DNA of 64,000 nt from Anaerolineae bacterium (GTDB taxonomy: Bacteria > Chloroflexota > Anaerolineae > Anaerolineales > Anaerolineaceae): contig JABUFD010000008.1 of NCBI GenBank assembly GCA_013314735.1, forward strand, positions 1-64,000. The letters run 5' to 3'. Positions 6,644-56,899 of the stretch are shown in pieces. Numbering within the stretch: the first letter of the stretch is position 1; each line of letters starts with the position of its first letter. The notes under the pieces are model-generated. The model ran no database searches. It saw only the letters and a list, made by a program, of their open reading frames with translations, and was not told where the DNA came from. Made by a program: the position numbers and the translations under genes.

Positions 6644-8050
6644 ATGGAAGGTTTATTGACAATCGCATTGGTCGCATTTATTGTGATCATCTTTTTCACC
6701 CTGCTGTTCCTGGCCAGCCGCTTCCGCCGCTGCCCCTCGGACAAGATCCTGGTGGTGTACGGCAAGGTGGAAAAAGGCCGTTCCAGCCGCTGTATGCACG
6801 GCGGCGGGGCTTTCATCTGGCCGCTGGTGCAGGATTACGCCTATATGAGCCTGACCCCGATGACGATCAGCATCCCGCTGGAAGGCGCGCTCTCGCTGCA
6901 GAACATCCGCATCAACGTGCCCAGCACCTTCACGGTCGGCATCAGCACCCAGCCGGAGATCATGATGAACGCCGCGGAACGGTTGCTGGGCATCAACCAG
7001 CAGGCGATCGAGGACATGGCCAAGGAGATCATCTTCGGCCAGCTGCGCCTCACCGTGGCTTCGCTGACGATCGAGCAGATCAACCAGGACCGCGAAAGCT
7101 TCCTGGATTCGATCCGCCAGAACGTGGAACCCGAACTGAACAAGATCGGCCTGTACCTGATCAACGTGAACATCACCGACATCACCGATTCCTCCAACTA
7201 CATCGACAGCATCGGCAAGAAAGCCGCCTCCGAAGCGGTCAACAAAGCCCGTGTGGATGTGGCTGAGCAGGAAAAACTGGGTGCGGTGGGTGAATCGCTG
7301 GCGGTGCGCGAAAAGGACATCAGCGTTGCCGAAAACGTGGCAGCTTCCGTCAACGGGCAGAAGAAAGCCGAAACCGAGCGGCGCGTGTACGTGCAGAACC
7401 GCGAAGCGGAAGCCGTGCAGGGCGAAAACCTGGCGAAAGCCAACATCGCCAAGGCCGAAGCCGAACTGGCAATCCAGCAGGCCGAAGCGCGCCAGCGCGC
7501 CGAGATCGCGCGGCGCAACGCCGAAGTGGAGATCCAGAAGGCGCAGTACCTGGCCGAACAGCAGCGCCTGCGCGCCGAGCAGATTGTGCAGCAGGAAATT
7601 GAGAAGCAGCAGGTGGAAATTTCCGCCGAAGCTGAAGCCGAACGTATCCGCCGCATCGCCAAGGGTGAAGCCGATGGCGTGCTGCTGAAGTACCAGGCCG
7701 AAGCCGAAGGCCTCAAGCGCCTGCTGGCGAGCAAGGCTGCCGGCTACAAGGAACTGGTGGCCGGCGCGGGCAATGATCCCCAGGCCGCCGCCACCCTGTT
7801 GCTGTTGGAAAAAATGGCCGACCTGGTCAAGTACCAGACCGAAGCGATCGGCAAATTGCAGATCGACAAGATCACGGTATGGGACAACGGCGGCAGCGGC
7901 GAAGGTTCCGCCACCTCGAACTTCATCGCCAACCTGTTCAAGAGCCTGCCGCCCCTGCACGAGATTTCGAAGATGGCCGGTGTGGAATTGCCCGCCTACC
8001 TCGGCAGCGTGGTGAGCGAAGGCGAAACCGAACCCGCCGAAGAAGCGTAG
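6644..8050 (+). CDS. flotillin-like protein (SPFH/Band 7 domain + EA-rich coiled-coil flotillin domain; FloT/YuaG-like)
   Basis: N-terminal TM, SPFH region, long E/A/Q/R-rich coiled coil (AEAELAIQQAEARQRAEIARRNAEVEIQKAQYLAEQQR). RBS GAAAGGAAA before ATG 6644. Confidence 0.85.
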   Translation: MEGLLTIALVAFIVIIFFTLLFLASRFRRCPSDKILVVYGKVEKGRSSRCMHGGGAFIWPLVQDYAYMSLTPMTISIPLEGALSLQNIRINVPSTFTVGISTQPEIMMNAAERLLGINQQAIEDMAKEIIFGQLRLTVASLTIEQINQDRESFLDSIRQNVEPELNKIGLYLINVNITDITDSSNYIDSIGKKAASEAVNKARVDVAEQEKLGAVGESLAVREKDISVAENVAASVNGQKKAETERRVYVQNREAEAVQGENLAKANIAKAEAELAIQQAEARQRAEIARRNAEVEIQKAQYLAEQQRLRAEQIVQQEIEKQQVEISAEAEAERIRRIAKGEADGVLLKYQAEAEGLKRLLASKAAGYKELVAGAGNDPQAAATLLLLEKMADLVKYQTEAIGKLQIDKITVWDNGGSGEGSATSNFIANLFKSLPPLHEISKMAGVELPAYLGSVVSEGETEPAEEA

Positions 8051-8085
8051 TTTTTAACGCTTGGCCCCTGTTACAGGGAACATTT

Positions 8086-8128
8086 CTGCCCGTGTTCGGC
8101 AATATCACGAACACGGGCAGTTTGTTTT
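8086..8128 (+). terminator. rho-independent terminator after the flotillin gene
   Basis: 13-bp stem ctgcccgtgttcg / cgaacacgggcag with a 9-nt loop, followed by TTTGTTTT. Confidence 0.6.
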
Positions 8129-8147
8129 CCCACCCCGGCCCTCCTTC

Positions 8148-8316
8148 CTCCGCCGCGGTGAAGGCACGGGAACCATTTTCACGCTGCCCCGCCTGCCCCA
8201 TCCCGGAGGTGGGTATGAAAGCAACATACACTGTTACTGCACTTCCCACCTCCGGGATGGAATGGATCGGCGAAACGCTGACCCGGTGAAGGGGAACGCC
8301 ACGCGGACAAACCGCC
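8148..8316 (+). repeat. R1 hairpin repeat, copy 1 (REPIN-like; inverted arms ccatcccggaggtggg / cccacctccgggatgg at 8198-8260)
   Basis: Near-identical to 11462-11628. The 5' module ggcacgggaacc[a/g]ttttcacgctgccccgcctgcccc is shared with 10636-10712 and 13275-13340. Confidence 0.75.
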
Positions 8317-8413
8317 ATTCCCCCCGCCCCCACAGCCCCCGGCATGGGCGGGTTCGGGTATAATCAAACCCAGGCGCACCCACCATTGTCCTGAACGGGG
8401 AGGAATACCCACC

Positions 8414-10072
8414 ATGAACCAGTTGTATTACGGCGACAATCTCACCATCCTGCGGGAGTACATCCCGGCGGAATCCGTCGACCTGATCTACCTCGACCCG
8501 CCCTTTAATTCCAACCGCAATTACAATATCCTGTTCAAGGAAGAAAGCGGGGAACAAAGCGCGGCGTAGTTGACCGCGTTTGAAGATACCTGGCACTGGG
8601 ACATCAACACCGAAGGCCTCTACCAGGAGATGGTCACCTCGGCCGACATGCCGCCGCAGGTGAGCAGCATGATCGCCGCGCTGCGCAATTTTATTGGCAC
8701 CAACCCGATGATGGCGTACCTGGTGAACATGAGCGTGCGCCTGGTGGAACTGCACCGCGTGCTCAAACCCAGCGGCTCGCTCTACCTGCACTGCGACCCC
8801 ACCGCCAGCCATTACTTGAAGGTGGTGCTGGATGCCATTTTTGGGTTTGAGAATTACCGGAACGAAATTGTGTGGAAACGCCAATCCGCGCACAGCGATG
8901 CACGATATAAATTCTCTGACGTGGCTGATATTATCTTCTTTTATGTTAAATCGGGCAAAGCGTTATTCACACCACAATATACAGAACATGACCCGGAGTA
9001 TATTAAGAAATTCTACCGTTATGATGACATGGATGGGCGAGGGCCATATCGCCTTGCTGACATGGCATCACCAAACCCACGCCCAAATATGATGTACGAG
9101 TGGAAGGGATACGGTTATCCGAGCAAAGGATGGCGGTACCAAAGGGATACCATGCAGAAGCTGGATGAGGATGGTCGCATATATTACCCCATAAAAACCG
9201 ATGGAAGCCCAGATTATACAAAGCGATTGGCATTGAAAAGGTACCTTTCAGAACAGGAAGGCTCAATAGTAACTAATATATGGGATGATATCCAGCCATT
9301 GCACGGTGCTACAGCCGAACGCCTTGGTTACCCGACGCAAAAACCGCAGGCGCTGCTGGAGCGCATCATCAGCGCCTCCTCCAACCCCGGCGATGTCGTG
9401 CTGGATCCGTTCTGCGGCTGCGGCACCGCCGTGGCCGCGGCGCAGGCCCTCGGGCGGCGCTGGATCGGGATCGACATCACCCACCTTTCGATTGCCCTGA
9501 TCAAATACCGCATCGAAGACGCCTTCCCCGAGGCCAAATTTGAGGTGCTCGGCGAACCGCAATCGGTGCAGGACGCGCGCTACCTGGCCGAAAACAGCCG
9601 CCACCAGTTTGAATGGTGGGCGCTTTCGCTGGTGCGGGCGCGCCCCGCCGGGGGCGACGGCGGCAAGACCGGCAAAAAAGGCGCCGACCGCGGCATTGAC
9701 GGCATCATCAACTTCATCGACGGCGCCAAAGGTGCGCCGAAACAGATCATCGTGCAGGTGAAATCCGGGCACGTCTCCTCTGCCCACATCCGCGACCTGG
9801 TGGGCACGCTCGAACGCACCAAGGCCGCCATCGGCGTGTACCTCACCCTCGAAGAACCGACCGCCCCCATGCGCAAAGAGGCCGCCGAAGCCGGCTTTTA
9901 CCATTCCGACCTGTGGAACCGCGACTACCCGCGCGTGCAAATCTACACCATCGAAGAACTGCTCTCCGGCGCCGCGGTGCAGATGCCGCCCACCAGCGCC
10001 AACGTCACCTTCCAGCGCGCCCAGCGCCAGAAAAGCGAAGACAGCACCCGCCAGCCGGATTTGTTCGGTTAA
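8414..10072 (+). pseudogene. beta-class N6-adenine/N4-cytosine DNA methyltransferase fused to a C-terminal Mrr-type (PD-(D/E)xK) restriction endonuclease-like domain; interrupted by an in-frame TAG at 8567-8569
   Basis: N-terminal DLIYLDPPFNSNRNYN (motif IV) lies in the same frame as downstream ..AFEDTWHW.., ending in DPFCGCGT (motif I). These are separated only by an amber codon at the position where homologues have Q. C-terminal DRGIDGI..IIVQVKSG matches the Mrr catalytic motif. TATAAT at 8358-8363 and a GGGGAGGAA RBS precede ATG 8414. Confidence 0.7.
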
Positions 10073-10110
10073 GGGGAAGGGGGTAATGTTGGATTTTCAC
10101 ACATTGCTTG

Positions 10111-10139
10111 TTGCATTTTCGCACATCAAGGGATATAAT
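10111..10139 (+). promoter_or_regulatory. sigma70-like promoter for the XRE gene (TTGCAT -17 bp- TATAAT)
   Basis: TTGCAT at 10111-10116, 17-bp spacer, TATAAT at 10134-10139. Confidence 0.5.
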
Positions 10140-10182
10140 CATAGCGTGAAGTAATTTGCGCCTATGTGAAAGAGAGAATCCC

Positions 10183-10515
10183 ATGAACAGCGAATTGTCG
10201 ATGCATTTGAAAGAAATGCGGACCAAATTGAATTTCAGCCAGGAATATGTTGCCAGGTTGATGAACGTCAACCGCAGTGTGATCACCGCGATTGAATCCG
10301 GCAAACGCAGCGTCAGCGCGGAAGAATTGGATCAATTCTCGGCCATTTACGGCGTCTCGATGGAAATGCTTCTGCACGGAGAAGATGACCTTAACCATGT
10401 GCGTGTCTTCAACCGCATGTTTGACGCGCTGAGCGAGACCGACCAGCAGGAGATCCACAACCTGATGCAATTCAAGATCAACCTCAAGCGATCACTGGCA
10501 TCGGATGAACCATAA
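10183..10515 (+). CDS. XRE-family helix-turn-helix transcriptional regulator
   Basis: LNFSQEYVARLMNVNRSVITAIESGKRSVSAEEL is a Cro/C1-type HTH. ATG 10183 after a consensus promoter. Confidence 0.8.
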   Translation: MNSELSMHLKEMRTKLNFSQEYVARLMNVNRSVITAIESGKRSVSAEELDQFSAIYGVSMEMLLHGEDDLNHVRVFNRMFDALSETDQQEIHNLMQFKINLKRSLASDEP

Positions 10516-10635
10516 ACCGCACGTTATATACCAGCATCAATCTCCCGAAGAACTTGCCGCAGATGTTCTTCGGGAGTACCATAGTTATGCGTTCAACCCA
10601 TCCAACACCCACAACATCCCACTCACCTTCCCCCT

Positions 10636-10712
10636 GCCGCGGAGAAGGCACGGGAATCATTTTCACGCTGCCCCGCCTGCCCCATCGCCTCCGGCATGGG
10701 CGGGTTCGGGTA
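10636..10712 (+). repeat. R1 repeat, copy 2 (5' module only; hairpin deleted)
   Basis: gaaggcacgggaatcattttcacgctgccccgcctgcccc followed by ccggcatgggcgggttcgggta, which also follows copy 1 at 8330-8352. Confidence 0.65.
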
Positions 10713-10749
10713 GGGGGAAAGAAGGGATGACTGCATATTCATCGACTGC

Positions 10750-10799
10750 TTGACAAATTTGCCGTCATCCTGTACAGTAATACTGTACAGACACGGAGT
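10750..10799 (+). promoter_or_regulatory. yefM-yoeB promoter with tandem palindromic operator (2x CTGTACAG)
   Basis: TTGACA 10750-10755, 17 bp, TACAGT 10773-10778. Self-complementary CTGTACAG at 10770-10777 and 10783-10790 overlaps the -10 box. GGAG RBS before ATG 10805. Confidence 0.55.
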
Positions 10800-10804
10800 G
10801 TAAA

Positions 10805-11083
10805 ATGACGATTCAGACAACCTATACCCAGGCCCGTGACGGCCTGGCAAAATTGATGGACCAGGTGACGCATAATCGTGAAGTGGTGATTATCCAGCGC
10901 CGCGGTGAAGAGGAAGTAGCGATGATTGCCGCAGCGGAATTGGAAAGCCTGATGGAGACCGCCTACCTGCTGCGTTCCCCTGCCAATGCCGAACGCCTGC
11001 TTTCCGCCCTGGGGCGCGCCCTGAAACACGAGGGCACCCCGCAAAGCCTCGATGATCTGCGGCAGGAGACCGGGCTTGTCTAA
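10805..11083 (+). CDS. yefM: Phd/YefM family type II antitoxin
   Basis: MTIQTTYTQARDGLAKLMDQVTHNREVVIIQRRG..ESLMETAYLLRSPANAERLL is a typical YefM sequence. Overlaps the downstream toxin gene. Confidence 0.85.
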   Translation: MTIQTTYTQARDGLAKLMDQVTHNREVVIIQRRGEEEVAMIAAAELESLMETAYLLRSPANAERLLSALGRALKHEGTPQSLDDLRQETGLV

Positions 11084-11345
11084 AAAAGCGCGCGTAGCGG
11101 TCTTTCAGCCCGAGTTCATCGAGGACCTGCGCCATTGGGTGGAAACCGACCGCAAGCTGGCGCTGCGTACCTTCGACCTGATCGAAGCCATCTTGCGGGA
11201 TCCGTTCAACGGCATCGGCAAGCCGGAACCACTTAAATACCTGGCGCCGGGTACATGGTCCCGCCGGCTGACGCAGGAGCATCGTATCGTGTACCTGGTG
11301 CGCGATGAACAGATCGACTTTCTCCAGGCACGCTACCATTACTGA
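11052..11345 (+). CDS. yoeB: YoeB/Txe family type II toxin (ribosome-dependent mRNA interferase)
   Basis: ..FQPEFIEDLRHWVETDRKLALRTFDLIEAILRDPFNGIGKPEPLKY..SRRLTQEHRIVYLV.. matches YoeB. The true start is probably TTG 11076, overlapping the yefM stop by 8 nt. Confidence 0.8.
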   Translation: MICGRRPGLSKKARVAVFQPEFIEDLRHWVETDRKLALRTFDLIEAILRDPFNGIGKPEPLKYLAPGTWSRRLTQEHRIVYLVRDEQIDFLQARYHY

Positions 11346-11461
11346 GCGGATATTTCCCTTGATCTTTGGGATTAACGTTGTACAAATCTGCAATTGGAAT
11401 GCAGATTTGTACAGGTTTGTTAACATTTTCATCCACCCGGCCCATATTGACCCCTGTGCCC

Positions 11462-11628
11462 CCCGCCGCGGTGAAGGCACGGGAACCGTTTTCACGCTGC
11501 CCCGCCTGCCCCATCCCGGAGGTGGGTATGGAAGCAACATACACCGTTACCGCACTTCCCACCTCCGGGATGGAATGGATCGGCGAAACGCTGACCCGGT
11601 GGAGGGGAACGCCACGCGTACAAACCGC
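11462..11628 (+). repeat. R1 hairpin repeat, copy 3 (full length, REPIN-like)
   Basis: Near-identical to copy 1, including hairpin arms ccatcccggaggtgggtatggaagcaacatacaccgttaccgcacttcccacctccgggatgg. Confidence 0.75.
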
Positions 11629-11707
11629 AAAGGATGCCGCAGCTTCCCTGCCGGATGCGCCTGCGTTGTGCGATGTTGCCAAACGACATCGGCTGCGCCG
11701 CGCAGCC

Positions 11708-13183
11708 CTAGGCCTCCGCACTGAACAAATACGCCGTACCGGGCTGATCCCAACCATCCAGAAAAACTTCCGCGGTCCAATACTTGTCCGGGTACGGAAT
11801 ATTGACCCCATCGCCAAGGATGATATTCCTTGTCACATCATACATGGCGTCGCTGTCATAGCCCTCGCGTTTGTGCATGGCCTCCACATCGCCGGAGAAA
11901 GTGGCGCAGGCAAACTGGGAACAGAACGGCGGCCCCGCTTTTCCATCGTTCACCGGTACGAAGTCGAAGAACAGGAATCCTTCCGGGACAGGGGTGGATG
12001 CTTTCATCAGGCGCCCCCAAAAACCGTGCCACGGCCCCACATCCACGCCCAACCCATAATGGTGCATGAACAATATATCATAGCCAAAATCTGATTCGTA
12101 CCCGCTCATCGCGTCCAGGGTGCGGAAGAGTTCTTTCCGCTGTTCCAGGTTGTCCAGGTCAGTCAGCTCCTGCCCAATGAAGCGCATGGCAGGCATTTTT
12201 TTGTATTCAAAGCTCTCCACCCGGAAGCCCTGCTGCTGTTTCTTCACCGTATCGGGCATAAACAACGCCCACTGCACCTGGGCATCGCAATTTTTCAGAT
12301 AATTGACATAGCCAAAGACCTCCACGCTGTCGGTGCCTGTCGGCCCGGTTTTGTTTCCCGCGATTTTCTCCCGAATGCCCCGCTCCCGCATGACTGAGAA
12401 GTCGGCAAACATGTTGGCCACCGTTTCCCGTAACCCCTCCTCGCAGGGCTGCCCGGACAGTTCGTCATCAAATCGATCCAGGGCTTTGAACACAGCCGCA
12501 TTGACCACGCCGGCGGGTTCGAGCTCTTTCAGGCATGCCCGCAGCTGGTCATTTTGTTGCTTGAAGCGCCCAAGCACCCCCTGCATCAAAATCTGCTCAT
12601 TTTCCGCCAGTTGATCCGCACCCCATTGGGAATCATCAAGGATCCATTCGGTCAATTCATCAAAGACCCCCGGATTTTGCCCCCTGGCTTTGCCTGCCCA
12701 GCTGACCAACCGCTTATACTTCTCGATGGCTGACAGTGGTTCGCCCTTGTCATCGTCGATCTCGTTCCAATCGACCAGGTAAAATTCGCCCATTTGTGGG
12801 TATGTCATATCAAAACCTCCTTGAATGTTGATAGTAATCGTCAGGGGGTGGAACATCCTGACCCTGCCCCGCCGGATTTTCGATGGCGGCACCCCGTGAA
12901 ACCGCGTGAACGCCCTGGAAAAGCTCTCCTGTGTATCGTACTGATAGCGGAACGCCACATCCATGATTTTGCTCGCTGGCTGCAGCAAATCCTGCGCGGC
13001 CAGGCTCATGCGCCGATTGCGGATATACTCACCGACGGTGATGCCCATGACCAGGTGAAACAACAGCTGAAAATGGGAGCTTGATGTATACGCCTGTCTT
13101 GCCAACTCGTCGATGTTGAGTTCGCTGGTCAGGTTATTTTCGATGAACGCTATGGTTTTTGACAGGCTCTGAATCCAGTTCAT
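11708..13183 (-). CDS. AraC-family transcriptional regulator with large (~380-aa) C-terminal domain of unknown function
   Basis: N-terminal AraC HTH: IENNLTSELNIDELARQAYTSSSHFQLLFHLVMGITVGEYIRNRRMSLAAQDL...DVAFRYQYDTQESFSRAFTRFHGVPPS. Start either at the MNWIQ.. Met (13183) or at 13234. Confidence 0.7.
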   Translation of the reverse strand: MNWIQSLSKTIAFIENNLTSELNIDELARQAYTSSSHFQLLFHLVMGITVGEYIRNRRMSLAAQDLLQPASKIMDVAFRYQYDTQESFSRAFTRFHGVPPSKIRRGRVRMFHPLTITINIQGGFDMTYPQMGEFYLVDWNEIDDDKGEPLSAIEKYKRLVSWAGKARGQNPGVFDELTEWILDDSQWGADQLAENEQILMQGVLGRFKQQNDQLRACLKELEPAGVVNAAVFKALDRFDDELSGQPCEEGLRETVANMFADFSVMRERGIREKIAGNKTGPTGTDSVEVFGYVNYLKNCDAQVQWALFMPDTVKKQQQGFRVESFEYKKMPAMRFIGQELTDLDNLEQRKELFRTLDAMSGYESDFGYDILFMHHYGLGVDVGPWHGFWGRLMKASTPVPEGFLFFDFVPVNDGKAGPPFCSQFACATFSGDVEAMHKREGYDSDAMYDVTRNIILGDGVNIPYPDKYWTAEVFLDGWDQPGTAYLFSAEA

Positions 13184-13274
13184 CCACTGCCCTCCTTCAT
13201 CCATATCATACAGTCGGATTGCGAAAAAAGCCATGTCAGAAAATACGATGTTTTGTCCGTTCCCTGCCTTCCCA

Positions 13275-13340
13275 CCGCCGCGGGGCAGGCACAGGAACCG
13301 TTTTCACGCTGCCCCGCCTGCCCCGCACACGAACCGTGCA
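13275..13340 (+). repeat. R1 repeat, copy 4 (5' module only)
   Basis: ggcaggcacaggaaccgttttcacgctgccccgcctgcccc, immediately upstream of tRNA-Phe. Confidence 0.65.
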
Positions 13341-13397
13341 AAGGCTTGACGCTTTGGGCAGTGTATTGTAAAATCAAAGCGCGGTGAAAACCCGTCA

Positions 13398-13470
13398 GCC
13401 GAGATAGCTCAGTTGGTAGAGCACACGACTGAAAATTGTGGTGTCGTCAGTTCGATTCTGTCTCTCGGCA
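13398..13470 (+). tRNA. tRNA-Phe (anticodon GAA)
   Basis: 73-nt cloverleaf: acceptor gccgaga/tctcggc, D-arm gctc-AGTTGGTA-gagc, anticodon stem cacga/ttgtg, loop CTGAAAA (U33, GAA, A37), T-loop TTCGATT. One T-T mismatch in the T stem. CCA not encoded. Confidence 0.8.
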
Positions 13471-13471
13471 T

Positions 13472-13508
13472 AGAGCGCCCCCCCTGCGGGGCGCTCTGCA
13501 TTTTCATT
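13472..13508 (+). terminator. rho-independent terminator after tRNA-Phe
   Basis: agagcgcccc / ggggcgctct stem followed by gcattttcattt. Confidence 0.65.
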
Positions 13509-13569
13509 TGCCGCTGCACAAATTCCCAATCGCGGGTACAATCAAACCATTCCATTCGGGACGGATACC

Positions 13570-14820
13570 ATGACCACCACCACTCACCTGTCACAGCGCC
13601 AACCGGCGCAGATCAAAGCCTCGCTCTATTACGGCATCATGTGGGGCATGATGGCGCTTTCCACCACCTTCATCTCGATCGACCTCAACCACCGCGGCGT
13701 GACCGAAACCCAGTGGGGCATCATCTCGGCCCTGCGCGCGCTGATGACCTTCCTCGCCGCGCCGATCATCACCCGCCAGGCCGACCTGCGCCGCACGCGC
13801 GTGCGCTGGCTGCGCTGGATCATGATCCTGCAGGCGGTTGTGATGCTGATGTTCATGATCCCGCGCCACTTCGGTGCCTTCCTGGTGCTGTCGCTGCTGT
13901 CCGCCGTCATCGGCTCGGCCGTGATGCCCCTCGGCGATGGGGTGATCGTGCGCATGGCGCAGAAACACAATTTAGAATTCGGGCGGCTGCGCCTGTGGGG
14001 CTCATTGGGGTTTGCCGTGTTCGGCACCTTCGGCGGCTGGCTGTGGAGCGAGGTCGGCTATTCGTTCATCTACATCGCCGGCTTCCTCGGCTACCTGGTG
14101 GTGGCATTCTTCGCCGGCAACCTCGAAGAACCGGCCGTGCACGAGGCGGAGATCGAAATTCCCGTGCCCGAAGAAGAGGGCCTGCCGCTGCCCAAACCGA
14201 AAACGATCATTCAACTGCTGTTGGGCGATACCGTGCTGCTGCTGTTCCTGGTGGCGGCCTTCCTGCGCTCCTCTTCTGAACTGATGTTCTTTTCCTTCTC
14301 CGGCATCTACATCGACGCCCTCACCGGCAACGCCTTTTATGCCGGGCTGATCAACGGCGGTTCGGCCATCCTGGAAATCCCGGTGATGATCAACGCCCAG
14401 CGCCTGATCCAGCGTTTCGGGCTGGCACCGCTGGTGGTGGTGGGGTTCTTTGTCCAGGCGGCAGGCCTGGCGGTTTTCGCGCTTTCCAGCAGCCCGTGGC
14501 TGATGTATGCCGGCTCAACGCTGCGCAACATGGGCTTCGCGCTGTATTTTGTCGCGGCGGTGCAGTTCATCGACCGGCGCGCCGGCAAGAACGATGCCAC
14601 CAGCTACCAGGGCCTGCTGAGCGGGATCAGCTGGGGGCTGGCGCCGCTGCTGGCCACCCCGCTGGCCGGGATTGTCTACCAGCAGTGGAGCGCGCAATGG
14701 GTCTTCCTCCTCGCCACCCTGATCTGCACCTTCAGCGCGGTGGTGATGATCCCGGTGGCCGTGCTCTTCCGCCGCGAAGAGAAACAGCGTGCCCACCAGG
14801 CGGAAACCTCCCGCTTGTAA
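13570..14820 (+). CDS. MFS-type transporter (12 predicted TM helices)
   Basis: Hydrophobic periodicity throughout, basic residues in short loops between TM helices (e.g. ..TRQADLRRTRVRW..), 416 aa. TACAAT at 13533 upstream of ATG 13570. Confidence 0.75.
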   Translation: MTTTTHLSQRQPAQIKASLYYGIMWGMMALSTTFISIDLNHRGVTETQWGIISALRALMTFLAAPIITRQADLRRTRVRWLRWIMILQAVVMLMFMIPRHFGAFLVLSLLSAVIGSAVMPLGDGVIVRMAQKHNLEFGRLRLWGSLGFAVFGTFGGWLWSEVGYSFIYIAGFLGYLVVAFFAGNLEEPAVHEAEIEIPVPEEEGLPLPKPKTIIQLLLGDTVLLLFLVAAFLRSSSELMFFSFSGIYIDALTGNAFYAGLINGGSAILEIPVMINAQRLIQRFGLAPLVVVGFFVQAAGLAVFALSSSPWLMYAGSTLRNMGFALYFVAAVQFIDRRAGKNDATSYQGLLSGISWGLAPLLATPLAGIVYQQWSAQWVFLLATLICTFSAVVMIPVAVLFRREEKQRAHQAETSRL

Positions 14821-14880
14821 AGCAACAGGAAAGCGGGAATATCCGGGCTGAATACCGGGTGCCGTTGCGTCCGGGTTCGC

Positions 14881-15723
14881 TCAACCTGCCGCCCGGCCGC
14901 GGTTCCCTTCCAGCCATCCCACGGCGAAATCGACCAGGGCACGCTGGCGCAGCAGGCGGGTTTCCGCCATGCCAACCTGCCCGATGATGACCTCCGCGGG
15001 GCAGGCCGCCTCAAACGCGGCGCCCAGGGCGGGGAAGTCATCGCTGCCGTAATCGAGGTCATCGTACCACACCCATTGGCGCGCGCCTTCCACCAGCAGC
15101 GGGGCGCCTTCGCGCACCATTGCCTTGCCGGGAAAATCGGCGCGGTTTTCCGCCAGGTGGAGCGAGGTGTTGTTGCCGTGGCCCACCCCCAGCAACAGCA
15201 CCCACCCATCCAGGTCATACAGCCGTGCCAGGGGGGAGCCTTCGCCCATGGCCGGGGTGAGGGCATGGTTGGCGGTGAGGAATTCCGCCTGCGGGCCGCG
15301 CGCGCAGAATGAAACCTGCGGGTGCAGGCTGCGCCGCGTGCCATCCTGCTTGCGGAAGCACTCCGCGGCGGCGCCCATCCCCCGCGTGGGGGTCAGGTCG
15401 GGGGAAAAGGGCGGCATGCTGGCACGGATCGTATCCCACCACGCCGGCGGGACGGGCGGGTGCTGCCAGTTGGCGGGGTTGGAAAGGTCGCCGCTGTGGG
15501 CGGGCATCATCAGGGTGCCGGCCGGGCCGAGGGCATCTTCCAGCGCCAGCACCAGGGCGGGGGCGCTGCCGCACACCCACCCCAGCCGGCTGAGGGCGCT
15601 GTGCACCAGCAGCACCATGCCGGGGCGCACGCCGAGTGCCGCCAGGTCGGCGGTGATCTGCTGTTGGGTCATCATCCGGCTGGAAAGCACGGCGCGTTCT
15701 TCGCCGCGGATATCATGGGTCAT
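14881..15723 (-). CDS. AAC(3)-family aminoglycoside N3-acetyltransferase-like protein
   Basis: ITADLAALGVRPGMVLLVHSALSRLG..GTLMMP..NWQHPP.. and the C-terminal conserved blocks match the AAC(3) antibiotic N-acetyltransferase family. Start at ATG 15723 or the internal MMTQQQ Met; the track ORF extension to 16272 crosses the repeat element and is rejected. Confidence 0.75.
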   Translation of the reverse strand: MTHDIRGEERAVLSSRMMTQQQITADLAALGVRPGMVLLVHSALSRLGWVCGSAPALVLALEDALGPAGTLMMPAHSGDLSNPANWQHPPVPPAWWDTIRASMPPFSPDLTPTRGMGAAAECFRKQDGTRRSLHPQVSFCARGPQAEFLTANHALTPAMGEGSPLARLYDLDGWVLLLGVGHGNNTSLHLAENRADFPGKAMVREGAPLLVEGARQWVWYDDLDYGSDDFPALGAAFEAACPAEVIIGQVGMAETRLLRQRALVDFAVGWLEGNRGRAAG

Positions 15724-15794
15724 GGCGGGTTCCTCCGGGGGGTCTGGTTTTCTATCCATTGTACCGCTGTTTGCGCGGCGGAACGCCTCGGTGG

Positions 15795-16030
15795 TGAAGT
15801 TTGGGAATGGCAAAACATACACACCCGAACCTCCATCCCGAAGGGAGGTCTCCATCCCGAAGGGAGGTCTCCATCCCGAAGGGAGGTCTCCATCCCGAAG
15901 GGAGGTCTCCATCCCGAAGGGAGGGACATGCGCCGCTTGCACTCGTGACCTGACTGCCTCCCTCCGGGATGGGATGGCGAAGGCATGTTGGAAACGGCAG
16001 CCCGGAACGTCAAAGTCACGCCGCGGTGCC
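15795..16030. repeat. solo copy of the composite hairpin repeat (H family) with 5 tandem 19-bp arm repeats (cctccatcccgaagggaggt) x5
   Basis: Five tandem copies at 15830-15928, then gggacatgcgccgcttgcactcgtgacctgactgcctccctccgggatgggatggcg and a tail ggcccggaacgtcaaagtcacgccgcggtg that match units of the arrays at 51.96 and 56.12 kb. Confidence 0.75.
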
Positions 16031-16105
16031 CACCCCGCCTGCAACCCGCAGGGCGGGTTTGCCGTATCATTAATAGAGCTTTGTCGCAATCGAAAGGAAA
16101 CCTGC

Positions 16106-18022
16106 ATGAACCACACAACCCGAACGCAAACCAGGGGAAGGCTGATGCTGGCGCTCTTGATCGCCGCCCTGTGCCTGGCCGCCCCGCTGCCGGTACGCGC
16201 CCAATCCGCCGCCGACCTCGACGACCCGCTGGCAATGGCCGCTTTCCTCGAAGGCGCGTTTGCCGCCGCCATGCTGGAACACCATGTACCCGGCGCGGTG
16301 GCGGTGGTGGTGAAGGACGGCGCGGTGCTGCACGCCGCCGGTTACGGCTATGCCGACCTGGAAACACCCACCCCGGTCGACCCGGCCACCACCCTCTTCC
16401 GCCCCGGTTCGGTCTCCAAGCTGTTCACCTGGACCGCCGTGATGCAGATGGTGGAAGCCGGCCAGCTTGATCTCGATGCCGACATCAACCGCTATCTCGA
16501 TTTTGAGATCCCCTCCACCTTCCCCCAGCCGATCACCCTGCGCCACCTGCTGACCCACACCCCCGGGTTCGAGGACCAGGGCCAGGGGCTGTTCAAGCTC
16601 GATCCCGCCGAAATGATCTCCCTGGGCGAGTACCTGAAACGTGCCATCCCGGCACGGGTGTACCCGCCGGGTGAGATCGCGGCCTATTCCAACTACGGCT
16701 CAATCCTGGCCGGCTACATCGTGGAGCGCGTGAGCGGGATGCCGTTCACGGCGTATGTGGAAACCCACATCCTTGCCCCGCTGGGGATGGAACACGCCAC
16801 CTTCCAGCAGCCCCTGCCGCCCAACCTCCAGGCCGATATGGCGGGCGGGTACAACTACCTGAACGGTGAATACCTGCGGGGGTCGTTTGAACTGGTGGTC
16901 GGCTCTCCCGCCGGCGGGTTGAGTGCTTCGGGGCTGGATATGGCGCGCTTCATGATCGCCCATCTGCAACACGGTGAATACAACGGCGCGCGTATTTTGC
17001 AGGAAGACACCGCGCAGCAGATGCACAGTCCGCTCTACAGCCCTGACCCGCGCATCGACTGCATGGCGCACGGCTTTTTCTACCAGCACATCAACGGGCA
17101 GTACACGCTCTCGCACGGCGGTGACACCATGCTGTTCCATTCCAGCCTGAGGCTGCTGCCGGAACACAACCTGGGGATTTTCATCTCCACCAATGGCACC
17201 AACGGTTCGATGGTGGTGGAAACCGTAACCAAAGCCTTCATGGACCGCTACTTCCCGGTGGCGGTAGCCGAACTGACCCCCACTGCCGATTTCGCCGAAC
17301 GCGCGGCGCTGTACCGCGGCAATTATATTTCCGCCCGCAGCAATGTGCATGGACTGGAAAAAATACTTAACCTGATGACCCCAACGTCGGTCAGCATTAC
17401 CCCGGACAACCGCGTGGTATTGAACTATGCCGGGCAGGCGACTTCCTTCATCGAGGTGGAACCGGGCCTGCTGGTCGATCCGCTCGATCCGGATAACCGG
17501 ATTGTGATGCATGCGTTGAACGGGCGCGTACGCCTCTCACCGCCCATGCCGTTTGAATTCCTCAAAATCCACTGGTACGAAACCAGCGCCTTCCAGGGCG
17601 TGCTCTTCGTTGGCGGGCTGCTGATGTTTCTCGGGGCCGGTGTGGGATTCATCAGCGCGTTCCTGCGCCGCCGCAAGGCACACGAACCGGTTCCCGCGGG
17701 GTCACGCCTGGCACGCTGGACGGCGGCGCTGTTCGGGATGGCCCTGCTGCTGTTCCTGGCGGGATTCCTGGTGGTGTTCTCCGATATCGACCCCGCGCTG
17801 GGTGTTCCCACCGTGTTCTTTGCCGACCCCGGCACCCTGCCCATGCTGCTGGTCATCCTGCCGCTGGTGCTGGTTGCGCTGGGCGCGCTGATGGTGGTGT
17901 TTGCTGCCGCGGCATGGCGCAAGCGCTGGTGGAGCGCCGGTGGGCGCGCCTGCTACAGCCTGCTGGCGCTGTGGGCGCTGGGGCTGGTGTGGGCACTGGC
18001 GTACTGGAACCTGCTCTTCTGA
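16106..18022 (+). CDS. serine hydrolase of the beta-lactamase/PBP (class C-like) family with signal peptide and C-terminal multi-TM region
   Basis: Signal peptide MLALLIAALCLAAPLPVRAQS. S-x-x-K motif at FRPGSVSKLF; YSNYG (Y-x-N-like) and HGG (KTG-like) elements. Four hydrophobic helices in the last ~130 aa. ATG 16106 with AAAGGAAA RBS. Confidence 0.75.
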   Translation: MNHTTRTQTRGRLMLALLIAALCLAAPLPVRAQSAADLDDPLAMAAFLEGAFAAAMLEHHVPGAVAVVVKDGAVLHAAGYGYADLETPTPVDPATTLFRPGSVSKLFTWTAVMQMVEAGQLDLDADINRYLDFEIPSTFPQPITLRHLLTHTPGFEDQGQGLFKLDPAEMISLGEYLKRAIPARVYPPGEIAAYSNYGSILAGYIVERVSGMPFTAYVETHILAPLGMEHATFQQPLPPNLQADMAGGYNYLNGEYLRGSFELVVGSPAGGLSASGLDMARFMIAHLQHGEYNGARILQEDTAQQMHSPLYSPDPRIDCMAHGFFYQHINGQYTLSHGGDTMLFHSSLRLLPEHNLGIFISTNGTNGSMVVETVTKAFMDRYFPVAVAELTPTADFAERAALYRGNYISARSNVHGLEKILNLMTPTSVSITPDNRVVLNYAGQATSFIEVEPGLLVDPLDPDNRIVMHALNGRVRLSPPMPFEFLKIHWYETSAFQGVLFVGGLLMFLGAGVGFISAFLRRRKAHEPVPAGSRLARWTAALFGMALLLFLAGFLVVFSDIDPALGVPTVFFADPGTLPMLLVILPLVLVALGALMVVFAAAAWRKRWWSAGGRACYSLLALWALGLVWALAYWNLLF

Positions 18023-18145
18023 TCCTCCGGATTGCAGCGCACAAACGCAAACGCCCGGGCTTGGCCTGGGCGTTTGAGCTGTGTGTTGTGTGTGTTGTTA
18101 TAGTCGATCAAGGGTCTAGGAGAACCTCGAAAACGTGCGTCTTGT

Positions 18146-18568
18146 TCAGCGGCTGAGCAGCCAATCAATGATCAGGGTCTTTTCTTCCTCGTTGATCTTG
18201 GCACCGTAGCCGATCATGCGGTCGAGGGTTTCTTCCCATTCTTCACGGGTTTTGTCAGAATTCAGCACGCGGTCGATATCGTGTTTGCCATCCAGTTTTT
18301 CCGTGATCAGGGCGATCATATCATCTTCAGAGGGCAGGGCGCTTTCGGCGGGGGCCTGTTCCTCGGTTTCGGCAGCGGGTTCAGCGGCTTCCGCTTCGGC
18401 AGCTTCCGGTTCTGCTTCTTCAGCTTCGGCCGGGGCTTCTTCCGCGGCGCTGTCTTCAGCGGCTGCCGGTTCTGCGGCGGGGGCGGGTTCTGCGGTTGTG
18501 CAGGCGGAAATCACCAGCAGGGCGGTGATCGCCAATATCAGTACAATCCAGAGCTTTTTGCGTTGCAT
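18146..18568 (-). CDS. small acidic lipoprotein (E/A/P-rich linker, C-terminal globular domain)
   Basis: Signal peptide with lipobox LVISAC, then an AEEAPAEAEEAEPEAAEAEAAEP low-complexity stretch. Confidence 0.55.
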   Translation of the reverse strand: MQRKKLWIVLILAITALLVISACTTAEPAPAAEPAAAEDSAAEEAPAEAEEAEPEAAEAEAAEPAAETEEQAPAESALPSEDDMIALITEKLDGKHDIDRVLNSDKTREEWEETLDRMIGYGAKINEEEKTLIIDWLLSR

Positions 18569-18979
18569 CGGTTCCTCCAGGGAATCGGAATTACTTAATA
18601 CTTATCAAATAAATCTAACAAAATAATACCTGTTCTGGAAATGGAAATCAAGCCCGCGGGGACGTTCTAACAAAACATTAATGCAGTCAGCCCGTCCACC
18701 CTGCCGCTTTTCCCTATTGACTCTCCCCCCGGGGGAGGCTGTATACTCTTCGATGGAAGACAGCGAACGAAAGGAAAGGAGAACGGATGGTCTGTGGATG
18801 GATGACAGCAGGGCGAACCTGCCAGGCGCTTGCCGCACCCTGCGCGGCGCGGCGCCAGCGGCCAACCTCACGCCGCACAGCGCGGCGCATGTGCCTCCAC
18901 CCCGAAGCGGGATCGGGCGGCTTGCTGCCCGGCCCGGCAGGGCGTACAATCAATCAAGATCAAGGAAAGGAATAACACC

Positions 18980-19831
18980 ATGGATGAACACTGGCTTCAA
19001 TACTACCGCCAACCGGGCGTGATGACCGACCTCACGCCCCTGGGCGATGCCCTGGGGGAACTCCCGCGCGACCTGCCGGCGCTGGTGCGCCTGGTGCAGG
19101 GGGTGATGCTGCACGTCTTCTGGGCGGAGCACGAAGGCTTTGCGCTGGACGATGCGCGCCGCGCCGAGGTGGGCCTGCGCCCCGCCGCCGACAGTCTGCG
19201 CCGCGCCCTGGCGCTGGACCCCGCCCCACTGGCGCAGCCGCGACCGTTGGCGCGCAAGGTGGTCGGCAACTGCCGCCACTTCTCCGTTCTGCTGTGTGCC
19301 CTGCTGCAGCGCCAGGGCATCCCGGCCCGGGCGCGCGCGGGCTTCGGAACGTACTTTCTGCCCGACCATTACGAGGACCACTGGGTGGCGGAGTACTGGC
19401 ATGCCGCCCGGCAGCGTTGGGTGATGGTCGATGCCCAGCTCAGCCCGTTCCAGCTGGAGGCGCTGCGGATAGCGTTTGACCCGCTGGATGTGCCCCCGGC
19501 GCAGTTCTGGACGGCCGAACGCGCCTGGCTGGCGGCGCGCGCCGGTGAGATCGACCCTGAGCAGTGCGGCATCTTTGACATGCACGGGATGGACTTCATC
19601 CGCGGCAGCCTCGGGCTGGACTTCGGCGCGCTCAACAAGTTCGAGGTGCTGCCGTGGGACGGCTGGGGCATTTTCCAGCGCGAACCGGACCAGATCGATG
19701 CCGACGGCTGGCGTTTCCTCGACCAGCTGGCAGCGATGATGGCGGATGCCGACCAGCACCTGCCGGAGCTGCAGCGCCTGTTCCAGCAAGATGAGCGCGT
19801 GCGCCCCCCGCAACTGGCGGAACTGCCGTAG
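18980..19831 (+). CDS. transglutaminase-like cysteine protease superfamily protein
   Basis: GNCRHFSVLLCALLQRQGIPARARAGF ... DHWVAEYW ... VMVDAQ matches the Cys-His-Asp core of the transglutaminase-like domain. AAGGAAAGG RBS before ATG 18980. Confidence 0.7.
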   Translation: MDEHWLQYYRQPGVMTDLTPLGDALGELPRDLPALVRLVQGVMLHVFWAEHEGFALDDARRAEVGLRPAADSLRRALALDPAPLAQPRPLARKVVGNCRHFSVLLCALLQRQGIPARARAGFGTYFLPDHYEDHWVAEYWHAARQRWVMVDAQLSPFQLEALRIAFDPLDVPPAQFWTAERAWLAARAGEIDPEQCGIFDMHGMDFIRGSLGLDFGALNKFEVLPWDGWGIFQREPDQIDADGWRFLDQLAAMMADADQHLPELQRLFQQDERVRPPQLAELP

Positions 19832-19833
19832 GC

Positions 19834-20361
19834 TTACTGCGCCTTGCGGCGCTCAAACCACTTCAGCACACCCACCACCACCGCGGCCACCGAGACCGCC
19901 AGCAAGGCCCACTTGGCGCTGGCGGCCAGCGCCGCCAACAGGGTCGGCAGGGGATCGAGCGCCTGCGGCTGCTGCAGCATGAAAATGTGGAAGATGTTCT
20001 CGACCCAATCCAGCACCCCTGCAGCCAGCGGGGCGAGGAACAGGGTATCACCGCCGGGTTCGTAGTGTTCGTGGGAGGTCAGGTTGGCGATCGCCCCGGA
20101 AAGGGCCACGGCATACGCCAGCGGGAAGAGGAAATCGACATACATCATGTTGAGGTAGGCGCGCACACCGTCTTCGCCCCATTCGGCCAGGATCGCCTGC
20201 ATGCTTTCCACGCTGTAGGCGGTCTGCATGGTGAACAACCCGGTTTTGCCGCGCAGGGCGTCGCCCTGGATGATGGCAAAAGCGGCCAGGCACAGCAACA
20301 CCACCAGTAATGCCAGCACGCGCACCGCTTTGCGCCGGATCAAGGAAAACAATCGAGCCAT
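19834..20361 (-). CDS. hypothetical membrane protein
   Basis: 175 aa with 4 predicted TM helices; no diagnostic motifs. Confidence 0.5.
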   Translation of the reverse strand: MARLFSLIRRKAVRVLALLVVLLCLAAFAIIQGDALRGKTGLFTMQTAYSVESMQAILAEWGEDGVRAYLNMMYVDFLFPLAYAVALSGAIANLTSHEHYEPGGDTLFLAPLAAGVLDWVENIFHIFMLQQPQALDPLPTLLAALAASAKWALLAVSVAAVVVGVLKWFERRKAQ

Positions 20362-20485
20362 GGATGGTTTCTCCTTCGAAATTGTTAGATGATGGGGTTA
20401 ATCTTAATCCAATTTCGCATTTCGTGCGGGGGATTTTCCCCGCAATGTGACTTAAGTCGTATCGCCCTGCGGAAAAATGCGCTAT

Positions 20486-56880: not shown

Positions 56881-56899
56881 AAAGGCGGCGGAACCGTCC

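What the first reader, a model, noticed from the sequence alone, without database searches (positions are those of the whole stretch)
8148..13340. Second hairpin repeat family (R1, 4 copies) partitions a decayed island next to tRNA-Phe; shares the CCATCCCGGAGG arm core with the H family
Copies at 8148, 10636, 11462 and 13275 are all in the same orientation. They separate four modules: a disrupted MTase-Mrr gene, an XRE gene plus a truncated partner, yefM-yoeB, and an AraC-like regulator. The last copy ends 58 bp before tRNA-Phe(GAA).

Two copies are full length with a hairpin ccatcccggaggtggg..cccacctccgggatgg; two have lost the hairpin. The shared arm core suggests a superfamily of REPIN-like elements with a common cognate protein.

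No integrase, transposase or direct repeat of the tRNA 3' end is present, so this looks like a remnant of a tRNA-targeted integrative element that has been eroded or rearranged at these repeats.
Basis: partly seen in the sequence, partly recalled or inferred. Interest (0 to 1): 0.65.

Follow-up and report, generated by a model that had tools for sequence, protein, structure and literature searches.

The report
Lineage-specific hairpin repeats partition accessory genes
Four copies of a roughly 170-base hairpin-forming repeat, a diverged branch of a tandem-array repeat family in the same Anaerolineae genome, sit in four of the five gaps between genes of a small, probably foreign, defence and toxin-antitoxin cluster; this looks like an ordinary family of intergenic repeats, not the scar of an element that integrated into the neighbouring tRNA gene.

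Summary
Four same-strand R1 copies lie at 8146-8315, 10630-10712, 11459-11628 and 13271-13327. They occupy 4 of the 5 intergenic spacers between the flotillin gene and tRNA-Phe, and none of about 45 spacers elsewhere (p = 2e-5). Two copies are full length (about 95% identical). The other two keep only the 57-nt 5' module.

R1 shares more than an arm core with the H family. It is collinear with a whole H unit: 168-169 nt, module lengths 46/63/60 vs 48/64/56, and 54-58% identity (z 5.5-7.3). The 17-bp hairpin is kept through two compensatory pair changes. All truncated R1 and H copies break at the hairpin base, which points to palindrome-driven deletion.

The tRNA-integration reading is not supported. 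The cluster lies 5' of tRNA-Phe. No tRNA segment is repeated in the window. No integrase, transposase or RAYT gene occurs in the 64 kb. The tRNA lies inside a 12.6-kb segment that the closest relative lacks at the collinear site.

R1/H lacks REP tags, MITE ends and attC cores, and has no Rfam match. No copy was found in the public collections searched.

Best reading: an undescribed lineage-specific BIME/REPIN-like repeat family that spread locally in a permissive, horizontally acquired gene cluster. Interest is modest.

The parts
8083..8130 (+). Flotillin-gene terminator hairpin (CTGCCCGTGTTCG..CGAACACGGGCAG followed by a T-run). It marks the end of collinearity with the relatives.
   Evidence: Sequence read. 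blastn collinearity with L005-L007 and L024 ends at 8044/8007.
8146..8315 (+). R1a, a full-length R1 unit: 5' module 8146-8202, a 16-17-bp hairpin with arms at 8198-8213 and 8245-8260 and a 31-nt loop, then the 3' module.
   Evidence: (D11, D12). As single-stranded DNA it folds at -53.4 kcal/mol, z = -3.75.
8335..8362 (+). R1b-like 3' fragment (CCGGCATGGGCGGGTTCGGGTA) downstream of R1a, overlapping a TATAAT box upstream of the MTase gene.
   Evidence: Direct comparison of 8330-8365 with 10680-10715.
8414..10072 (+). DNA methyltransferase (N6_N4_Mtase) fused to an Mrr-type nuclease domain. It is a pseudogene through a single in-frame TAG at 8567-8569, and it has a low-GC mosaic middle part at about 8860-9330.
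   Evidence: Pfam, translation, GC profile.
10183..10515 (+). XRE-family HTH regulator.
   Evidence: Pfam HTH_3, E = 1.9e-13. PHROGs and NCBIfam agree.
10505..10633 (+). ORF fragment that overlaps the XRE stop and runs into R1b after about 42 codons. It may be a truncated partner gene, but this is unverified.
   Evidence: Translation. No family or plasmid match.
10630..10712 (+). R1b: the 5' module plus a collapsed hairpin. Only a 3'-arm-like CCTCCGGCATGG remains, followed by GCGGGTTCGGGTA.
   Evidence: (D12).
10805..11345 (+). yefM-yoeB type II toxin-antitoxin pair, with its own promoter/operator at 10750-10778 and a terminator at 11378-11414.
   Evidence: Pfam PhdYeFM_antitox 7.5e-17 and YoeB_toxin 1e-33. 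Promoter and terminator scan.
11459..11628 (+). R1c, a full-length R1 unit 162/170 identical to R1a. It lies between two convergent terminators.
11708..13234 (-). AraC/MarA-type regulator: an N-terminal dual HTH plus a C-terminal domain of about 380 aa with no family match. The annotated start gives 491 aa (13183).
   Evidence: Pfam, NCBIfam. Homologues are 68-86% identical across phyla, each in a different context.
13271..13327 (+). R1d: the 5' module only. Two substitutions make it a perfect 11-12-bp stem (GCGGGGCAGGC..GCCTGCCCCGC). It lies 19 nt upstream of the tRNA-Phe -35 box.
   Evidence: (D12). DNA fold z = -3.06. Promoter at 13346-13374.
13398..13470 (+). tRNA-Phe(GAA). It has its own promoter and terminator, and no part of it is repeated elsewhere in the window.
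   Evidence: ARAGORN, Rfam 66.6 bits, repeat test.
8045..20621 (.). The 12.6-kb segment between the flotillin gene and the ferredoxin/DUF438-hemerythrin genes. The closest relative has only about 290 bp here. It contains the R1 cluster, tRNA-Phe, the MFS, AAC(3)-type NAT and beta-lactamase-family genes, and the solo H unit.
   Evidence: blastn of L005-L007 against the window. Gene content.
15783..16028 (+). Solo H-family unit with five tandem copies of the 19-nt arm sub-repeat CTCCATCCCGAAGGGAGGT.
51965..52880 (+). H-family tandem array 1, with a period of 159/178 nt and a 338-nt higher-order repeat. It starts with a collapsed hairpin and ends with a 5'-module-only unit.
56138..56888 (+). H-family tandem array 2. 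Its last unit has lost the hairpin, with the break at the hairpin base.

Best explanation
A unit is about 160-170 nt. It consists of a 5' module that is itself a weak hairpin, a 17-bp hairpin made of two inverted copies of a 19-nt quasi-palindrome around a 31-nt loop, and a 3' module. The organism is an uncultured Anaerolineae bacterium.

The family behaves like REP/BIME/REPIN-type intergenic repeats. It lives only in spacers. It occurs as solo units and as tandem arrays that grow by unequal recombination. Its long palindromes are repeatedly lost by deletions that start at the hairpin base, leaving 5'-module-only relics such as R1b and R1d.

The four R1 copies fill the spacers of a 5.2-kb, low-GC, horizontally acquired cluster: a dead MTase-Mrr gene, XRE, yefM-yoeB and an AraC-type regulator. 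I infer that such DNA tolerates repeats and that spread was local, either by recombination or by a trans-acting enzyme encoded elsewhere.

Once present, the copies act as portable homology. The ~95%-identical R1a and R1c direct repeats bracket 3.3 kb. This can delete, duplicate or exchange modules, which is how the cluster comes to look partitioned.

Proximity to tRNA-Phe is incidental.

Shown here: family membership, the architecture, the breakpoints, the enrichment in this cluster, the absence of the cluster from relatives, and the absence of tRNA-derived repeats and recombinase genes. Inferred: the mode of spread and the recombination role.
For: - The four copies and the enrichment of their core motif.
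- Collinearity of R1 with H units: equal unit length of 168-169 nt; module lengths 46/63/60 vs 48/64/56; 54-58% identity with z 5.5-7.3, and hairpin plus loop z of about 8; shared terminal motifs GCCGCGGTG and GGAACGCCA.
- The hairpin is kept: 97.6% of cells pair against 65% or less when the partners are slid, and two pairs changed on both sides between R1 and H.
- Five independent truncated copies break at the hairpin base: R1b, R1d, 51965, 52864 and 56815.
- Tandem growth: 159/178-nt periods and a 338-nt higher-order repeat.
- R1 sits in 4 of 5 cluster spacers and 0 of about 45 others, p = 2e-5.
- R1 copies lie outside transcription units, between mapped terminators and promoters.
- The cluster is low in GC, is absent from the collinear site in relatives, and its AraC-type gene is spread across phyla.
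- REP clusters made of dimers reiterated in tandem together with flanking DNA are described in PMC3733652.
Against: - No genome-wide census was possible. The R1 21-mer core gave only chance hits in genome contigs, metagenome contigs and viral contigs, and the H arm gave only chance hits in viral contigs. All copies known are therefore in one 64-kb window, and mobility is not demonstrated.
- The REP tag GTAG/CGTC is absent, and no RAYT or other transposase is in the window.
- R1 is confined to one 5.2-kb cluster. That is unusual for a dispersed repeat and would also fit import of R1 together with the cluster, or a site-specific process.
- All four copies retain the 5' module at 82-95% identity, which could reflect selection on that module rather than decay.
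- The covariation rests on a single R1/H split and is statistically weak.
Confidence: 0.55

Rival explanations
1. Site-specific tandem accretion. The 57-nt 5' module is the core of an attachment site. Circular modules integrated one after another, each leaving a full-length copy (attL-like) on its left and a short copy (attR-like) on its right. The recombinase has been lost or is encoded elsewhere.
For: All four copies are in the same orientation and all keep the same 57-nt module. The order is full, short, full, short. The copies coincide with module boundaries, and R1a sits exactly at the left junction of the segment missing in relatives. The cargo is typical of islands.
Against: The full-length unit is homologous over its whole length to H units, which form gene-free tandem arrays; att sites do not do that. 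The left flanks of the two short copies share only C-richness, and their right flanks share nothing, so there is no common P or B' arm. No recombinase is in the 64 kb. The yefM-yoeB module lies between a short copy and a full copy, which the model does not predict.
Confidence: 0.12
2. One reading: a decayed integrative element that targeted tRNA-Phe and was later eroded and rearranged at R1 repeats.
For: The cluster abuts tRNA-Phe, is low in GC, and carries decayed genes: a nonsense codon in the MTase and an ORF that runs into R1b. It is absent from relatives at the collinear site.
Against: The cluster lies 5' of the tRNA, with the tRNA's own promoter in between. No tRNA fragment of 14 nt or more is repeated in the window. 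There is no integrase or excisionase. The tRNA and 7 kb of GC-typical genes to its right are also missing from the relative's site, so the tRNA is not the boundary.
Confidence: 0.08
3. R1/H units are genes or cis-elements for a structured RNA, for example a multicopy small RNA or an mRNA-stabilising or insulating element, and their placement between modules is functional.
For: The hairpin is conserved through compensatory changes. The 5' module is a hairpin that becomes perfect in R1d, just upstream of the tRNA promoter. All copies are on one strand. The fold z-score is -3.75.
Against: There is no promoter-like or terminator-like signal inside the units. There is no Rfam match even at E = 1. 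The copies lie in tandem, convergent and divergent spacers alike, and outside mapped terminators. Hairpins are readily lost. The strand bias rests on only 4-7 independent loci.
Confidence: 0.1
4. Integron-like cassette system. R1/H hairpins are attC-like recombination sites that capture accessory genes.
For: Structured repeats in one orientation separate small accessory, toxin-antitoxin and resistance-type genes, both here and at 52-57 kb.
Against: There are no R'/R'' core sites and no IntI. The genes lie on both strands and have their own promoters and terminators. The family also forms long gene-free tandem arrays.
Confidence: 0.05

Closest known systems
REP / BIME clusters and REPINs (RAYT-associated repetitive extragenic palindromes)
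   Same: Strictly intergenic. Built from a short quasi-palindrome (the 19-mer CTCCATCCCGRAGGGAGGT) that occurs as inverted dimers forming a long hairpin. Found as singletons and as clusters in which dimers are reiterated in tandem together with flanking DNA, as described in PMC3733652. Lineage-specific, with diverged subfamilies within one genome.
   Different: No GTAG or CGTC tag. The unit is much larger and composite, at about 160-170 nt including conserved 5' and 3' modules. The arm sub-repeat varies in copy number (1, 2 or 5). No RAYT was seen. The genome-wide copy number is unknown. R1 is confined to one cluster.
MITEs (for example Correia, ERIC, RUP)
   Same: Size class of 100-200 nt, intergenic, able to fold into a long hairpin, non-coding.
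   Different: No terminal inverted repeats of 10 bp or more at the unit ends; only GCGGT/ACCGC. No target-site duplication. The inverted repeats are internal. The family forms head-to-tail arrays.
tRNA-linked genomic islands / integrative elements
   Same: A low-GC cluster of defence, toxin-antitoxin and regulator genes next to a tRNA gene, bounded by direct repeats, and absent from relatives.
   Different: It lies on the 5' side of the tRNA. The direct repeats are not derived from the tRNA. There is no integrase. The tRNA is internal to the variable segment.
Integron attC arrays / CALINs
   Same: Hairpin-forming repeats in one orientation that separate accessory genes, including a toxin-antitoxin pair.
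   Different: No attC core sites and no IntI. The genes have their own promoters and lie in both orientations. The family also forms gene-free tandem arrays.

Membership tests
REP/REPIN (RAYT-mobilised) | A short (20-40 nt) imperfect palindrome as the basic unit | tested here: met
   The 19-nt unit CTCCATCCCGRAGGGAGGT has a CCTCC/GGAGG stem and also occurs as tandem 19-nt copies (D10, 5). The stem is short, about 5 bp.
REP/REPIN (RAYT-mobilised) | A conserved GTAG (or CGTC) tetranucleotide tag at one end of the palindrome | tested here: not met
   No R1 copy contains GTAG, CTAC, CGTC or GACG. H units have one CGTC, but far from the hairpin, inside GGAACGTCAAAG. The definition is taken from PMC3733652.
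REP/REPIN (RAYT-mobilised) | Two REPs in inverted orientation that form a hairpin (the REPIN) | tested here: met
   A 17-bp stem with a 31-nt loop; 97.6% of cells pair across 10 units.
REP/REPIN (RAYT-mobilised) | A cognate RAYT (Y1 HUH transposase) gene, usually flanked by REPs | tested here: inconclusive
   No Y1_Tnp or any other transposase hit among the roughly 55 ORFs of the 64-kb window.
REP/REPIN (RAYT-mobilised) | Tens to hundreds of dispersed copies per genome | not testable with these tools
   The source MAG is not among the searchable genome representatives, and exact-core scans gave only chance hits. The window holds 4 R1 copies and about 13 H units at 3 loci.
BIME-type REP clusters | Inverted dimers reiterated head-to-tail together with flanking DNA | tested here: met
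   H arrays with periods of 159/178 nt and a 338-nt higher-order repeat. R1 itself is not in tandem.
MITE | Terminal inverted repeats and a target-site duplication | tested here: not met
   The unit ends share only a 5-nt inverted match (GCGGT/ACCGC). The flanks of R1a-d and of the solo H unit show no duplication.
tRNA-targeted integrative island | A direct repeat of part of the tRNA (usually its 3' end) at the distal boundary | tested here: not met
   No match of 14 nt or more to any part of tRNA-Phe elsewhere in the 64 kb. The 3' 17-30 nt have no match even with 3-6 mismatches allowed.
tRNA-targeted integrative island | An integrase gene within the island, with the island located 3' of the tRNA | tested here: not met
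   No integrase. The cluster is 5' of the tRNA, with the tRNA promoter in between.
tRNA-targeted integrative island | An empty site, with the tRNA next to the conserved flank, in relatives | tested here: inconclusive
   The closest relatives lack the cluster, but they also lack tRNA-Phe at this site. Three lineages have three different neighbours to the right of the flotillin gene.
Integron attC / CALIN | R'' (RYYYAAC) and R' (GTTRRRY) core sites flanking an imperfect palindrome, plus IntI | tested here: not met
   Neither motif occurs in any R1 copy or in the H units tested. No IntI in the window.
Known structured RNA families (Rfam 15) | A match to a curated covariance model | tested here: not met
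   Only the tRNA passes the gathering threshold. Nothing at E <= 1 in 8050-13400. Only a 21.6-bit chance-level hit in an H array.

The most novel reading that the evidence does not exclude
The R1/H hairpin units, and perhaps the unrelated repeat family that brackets the restriction cluster at 35-44 kb, are not passive repeats. They would be the recombination or landing sites of a previously unrecognised gene-capture system in Anaerolineae. Defence, toxin-antitoxin and antibiotic-modifying genes would be inserted or exchanged at the conserved 57-nt module or at the palindromic CCGCGG unit junction, by a recombinase encoded elsewhere in the genome.
Probability: 0.07. Interest if true: 0.75.

Novelty: new member of a known kind. 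Interest (0 to 1): 0.3.

Why it matters
Repeat families in Chloroflexota are poorly catalogued. This one breaks metagenome assemblies: a contig from the same strain ends inside the solo H unit. It also clusters around accessory genes, so knowing it helps MAG assembly and island delineation in this lineage.

If the repeats turned out to direct recombination, they would represent a new route of accessory-gene exchange. The present evidence does not favour that. The practical correction is that adjacency to a tRNA gene does not by itself indicate a tRNA-integrated island.

Tried and rejected
**Scans for the repeat elsewhere**
- I scanned genome contigs, metagenome contigs and viral contigs for the invariant R1 21-mer, and viral contigs for the H arm. 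The few hits shared nothing beyond the query word.
- blastn of an R1 unit and an H unit against plasmids found nothing. A search of the whole cluster against phages matched only the conserved methylase core.
- An nhmmer profile of the units, run against 23 fetched loci (231 kb), matched only the contig from the same strain.

**Synteny**
- The MFS gene to the right of the tRNA was no use for synteny. Its nearest homologues are only 55% identical and their contexts are unrelated.
- Exact-protein look-up did not return the 131-kb source contig, so I could not read beyond the window.

**Readings considered and dropped**
- The variable segments of H units as CRISPR/TIGR-like spacers: they are diverged versions of one sequence, not unrelated inserts.
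- H arrays as coding repeats: the 19-nt indels break the reading frame.
- The hairpin after the solo H unit as a shared terminator module with R1b: the similarity is short, and the fold is not better than shuffled sequence.
- Significance of the all-plus-strand orientation: there are only 4-7 independent loci, so p is at best about 0.02 and more realistically about 0.12.

**Unresolved**
- I tried to identify the ORF truncated at R1b using Pfam, PHROGs, NCBIfam and tblastn against plasmids. None gave a match.

Full report
**Observation**

The region holds four direct, same-strand copies of a repeat (families D11 and D12; alignment).
- R1a (8146-8315) and R1c (11459-11628) are full length and 162/170 identical.
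- R1b (10630-10712) and R1d (13271-13327) keep only the first 57 nt, at 82-95% pairwise identity.
- The full copies carry the hairpin CCATCCCGGAGGTGGG / CCCACCTCCGGGATGG around a 31-nt loop. As single-stranded DNA, R1a folds at -53.4 kcal/mol with z = -3.75.
- The 12-nt arm core is found 35 times in the window against 0.76 expected.

- A flotillin gene (6644-8050).
- An N6_N4 methyltransferase fused to an Mrr nuclease domain, interrupted by a single in-frame TAG at codon 52.
- An XRE regulator.
- yefM-yoeB.
- An AraC/MarA-type regulator on the minus strand.
- tRNA-Phe(GAA) at 13398-13470.

An ORF that overlaps the XRE stop runs into R1b after about 42 codons. It matches no family, so 'truncated partner' remains plausible but unproven.

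R1 fills 4 of the 5 spacers of this cluster and none of about 45 spacers elsewhere (Fisher p = 2e-5). A profile search finds no other copy in the window.

**What R1 is**

R1 is a diverged subfamily of the H elements, not merely a repeat that shares their arm core.
- After collapsing the extra 19-nt arm sub-repeats, H units measure 168-169 nt from anchor to anchor. Full R1 copies measure 169 nt.
- The three modules have matching lengths: 46/63/60 nt in R1 against 48/64/56 nt in H.
- Global identity is 54-58%, with z = 5.5-7.3 against shuffled sequence. It is strongest in the hairpin plus loop (z about 8), modest in the 5' module (z about 3) and weak in the 3' module.
- Both subfamilies begin with GCCGCGGTG and end with GGAACGCCA...CGC.
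- The 17-bp hairpin pairs in 97.6% of cells, against 65% or less when the partners are slid. Two pairs changed on both sides between R1 and H. This is a single evolutionary split, so it is weak but consistent evidence for a constraint on the hairpin.
- The 5' module is itself a hairpin. In R1d, two substitutions make it a perfect 11-12-bp stem (z = -3.06).

**How copies decay**

Every truncated member of the superfamily breaks at the base of the main hairpin:
- R1b has a collapsed hairpin.
- R1d has lost everything after the 5' module.
- The first unit of array 1 (51965) has a collapsed hairpin.
- The last units of array 1 (52864) and array 2 (56815) keep only the 5' module.

One H unit (52367) has its 5' arm 19-mer exactly inverted. 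The 19-mer varies between 1, 2 and 5 tandem copies. Arrays show 159/178-nt periods and a 338-nt higher-order repeat. These are the signatures of palindrome instability and unequal recombination. They explain the two 'hairpin-less' R1 copies without invoking any special function.

**Tests against known classes**

- No R1 copy contains the GTAG or CGTC tags that define the REP superfamilies (PMC3733652), nor the attC core sites.
- The unit ends have no terminal inverted repeats beyond 5 nt and no target duplication.
- Rfam gives only the tRNA at the gathering threshold. It gives nothing at E <= 1 in the R1 region, and one chance-level hit in an H array.
- H units contain no promoter-like or terminator-like signals.
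- R1 copies lie outside transcription units. R1a follows the flotillin terminator. R1c lies between the convergent yoeB and AraC terminators. R1b and R1d lie upstream of the yefM and tRNA-Phe promoters.
- Taking R1 and H together, copies occur in tandem, convergent and divergent spacers alike.
- No integrase, transposase or RAYT-type gene was found among the roughly 55 ORFs of the window.

**The island and the tRNA**

The cluster is low in GC, at 0.45-0.60 against 0.63-0.70 in the flanks. The lineage is Anaerolineae, and the source is an NCBI MAG with a 131-kb contig.

The closest relative available has 88% nucleotide identity in the flotillin gene (L005-L007). It is collinear with the window at the Crp, NfeD, flotillin and ferredoxin/DUF438-hemerythrin genes. 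It has about 290 bp where the window has 12.6 kb (8045-20621). That segment contains the R1 cluster, tRNA-Phe itself, about 7 kb of GC-typical genes and the solo H unit. R1a sits exactly at its left junction. The right junction has no repeat.

A second relative (L024, 83%) has a Na/Ca exchanger gene downstream of the flotillin gene. More distant relatives have other neighbours again. None carries a tRNA there or any R1/H sequence. The 3' flank of the flotillin gene is therefore a variable site, and tRNA-Phe is not its boundary.

No part of the tRNA is repeated in the window. The cluster also lies on the tRNA's 5' side, separated from it by the tRNA promoter. Together with the lack of an integrase, this removes the support for a tRNA-targeted integrative element.

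Horizontal origin of the cargo is supported independently. The AraC-type protein is 68-72% identical to proteins of Clostridia and Armatimonadota, and 84-86% identical to proteins on unnamed metagenome contigs. It sits in a different neighbourhood each time.

**Mechanism proposed**

R1/H is a lineage-specific family of intergenic repeats of the BIME/REPIN type.
- Shown here: composite hairpin units, tandem amplification, deletions at the hairpin base, restriction to spacers, and strong local enrichment of the R1 subfamily in a foreign cluster.
- Inferred: R1 spread locally, by recombination or by a trans-acting single-strand-DNA enzyme encoded elsewhere, within DNA that tolerates insertions. 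The copies then serve as portable homology. The R1a/R1c pair could delete or duplicate the 3.3-kb MTase-XRE-toxin-antitoxin block. The ORF that ends in R1b may record such an event.

I put this explanation at about 0.55. The rivals are:
- Tandem site-specific accretion, with the 57-nt module as an att core (0.12). It is suggested by the full-short-full-short order, but contradicted by the homology to gene-free tandem arrays and by the lack of shared arms.
- A structured-RNA role (0.10).
- An integron-like cassette system (0.05).

**Limits**

The family could not be found outside this window. Exact-core scans of the genome, metagenome and viral collections gave only chance hits. Plasmid and phage collections gave no match. 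Copy number, dispersion and any cognate enzyme therefore remain unknown, and mobility has not been demonstrated.

All 17 or so units are on the plus strand. They represent only 4-7 independent loci, so this is not significant.

**Verdict**

The superfamily idea is confirmed and strengthened. The REPIN analogy holds for architecture but fails a defining test. The tRNA-integration interpretation is not supported. This is a new, undescribed member of a familiar kind of bacterial repeat, and it is of modest interest.

Noticed in passing
window 34808-35082 and 44182-44397: A fourth, unrelated intergenic repeat family (CGAAGCGACATTCTGCGGGTAACTTRCGTTCTCCCCTCGACAGGCTCGGGGAGCGTGTTAA, tandemly duplicated with spacings of 159 and 138 nt). 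It brackets, in direct orientation, the low-GC restriction/defence cluster at 35-44 kb (GmrSD, type I HsdS, a HEPN protein, HsdR). This is the same pattern of repeats bracketing accessory genes as the R1 case.
   Followed up: partly
window 52394-52412 (H unit starting at 52367): In one H unit the 19-nt 5' arm is exactly inverted (CCTCCCTCCGGGATGGAGG instead of CCTCCATCCCGGAGGGAGG). Both arms then point the same way and the long hairpin is abolished.
   Followed up: partly
window 15831-15924; also 52235-52271, 52573-52609, 56186-56222, 56683-56719: The 19-nt arm sub-repeat CTCCATCCCGRAGGGAGGT varies in copy number (5 in the solo H unit, 2 in several array units, 1 in the others). This produces the alternating 159/178-nt periods.
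   Followed up: yes
window 51965-52880 and 56138-56888: The two H arrays flank a block of three resistance-type genes (a chloramphenicol-phosphotransferase-like gene and two GNAT acetyltransferase genes). The solo H unit sits between an AAC(3)-type acetyltransferase gene and a beta-lactamase-family gene.
   Followed up: partly
window 8860-9330: The middle of the MTase-Mrr pseudogene drops to 0.45-0.48 GC while its ends are at 0.58-0.67. This suggests a mosaic gene with an exchanged target-recognition region.
   Followed up: no
window 1700-4166 and 4926-6629: Compared with the closest relatives, the window has two further insertions: a Ser/Thr kinase-Bmp fusion gene between the Crp and NfeD genes, and a 529-aa Rce1-like (CPBP) protease gene that splits the otherwise adjacent NfeD-flotillin pair.
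   Followed up: partly
window 26132-26431 / 29452-29751 (genes 26261-29359 and 29581-32697): Two tandem paralogous genes of about 1035 aa, each a Ser/Thr kinase with WD40 repeats. Their 5' regions are 87% identical.
   Followed up: no
window 57924-58022: A tandem array of 4.3 copies of a 23-nt repeat (GTAATCGAAATTACAGCTAGTCT), next to a gene with internal repeats of about 300 nt (58013-60047).
   Followed up: no
window 803-851, 903-951, 49814-49862: Another short repeat family (CACGGATTTTTTTCCTCTTTATCCGCGTCGATCCGTGTAATCCGTGGTT), with three copies in spacers.
   Followed up: no
L001 (Logan SRR6186653 contig; equals window 13407-15850): A metagenome contig from the same strain starts inside tRNA-Phe and ends inside the 19-mer run of the solo H unit. 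These repeats therefore break short-read assemblies.
   Followed up: partly
window 8355-8370 and 13533-13548: Near-identical 16-mers (GGGTATAATCAAACCC and GGGTACAATCAAACCA) lie at the -10 regions upstream of the MTase and MFS genes. This is probably a chance similarity between promoters (E = 0.69).
   Followed up: no
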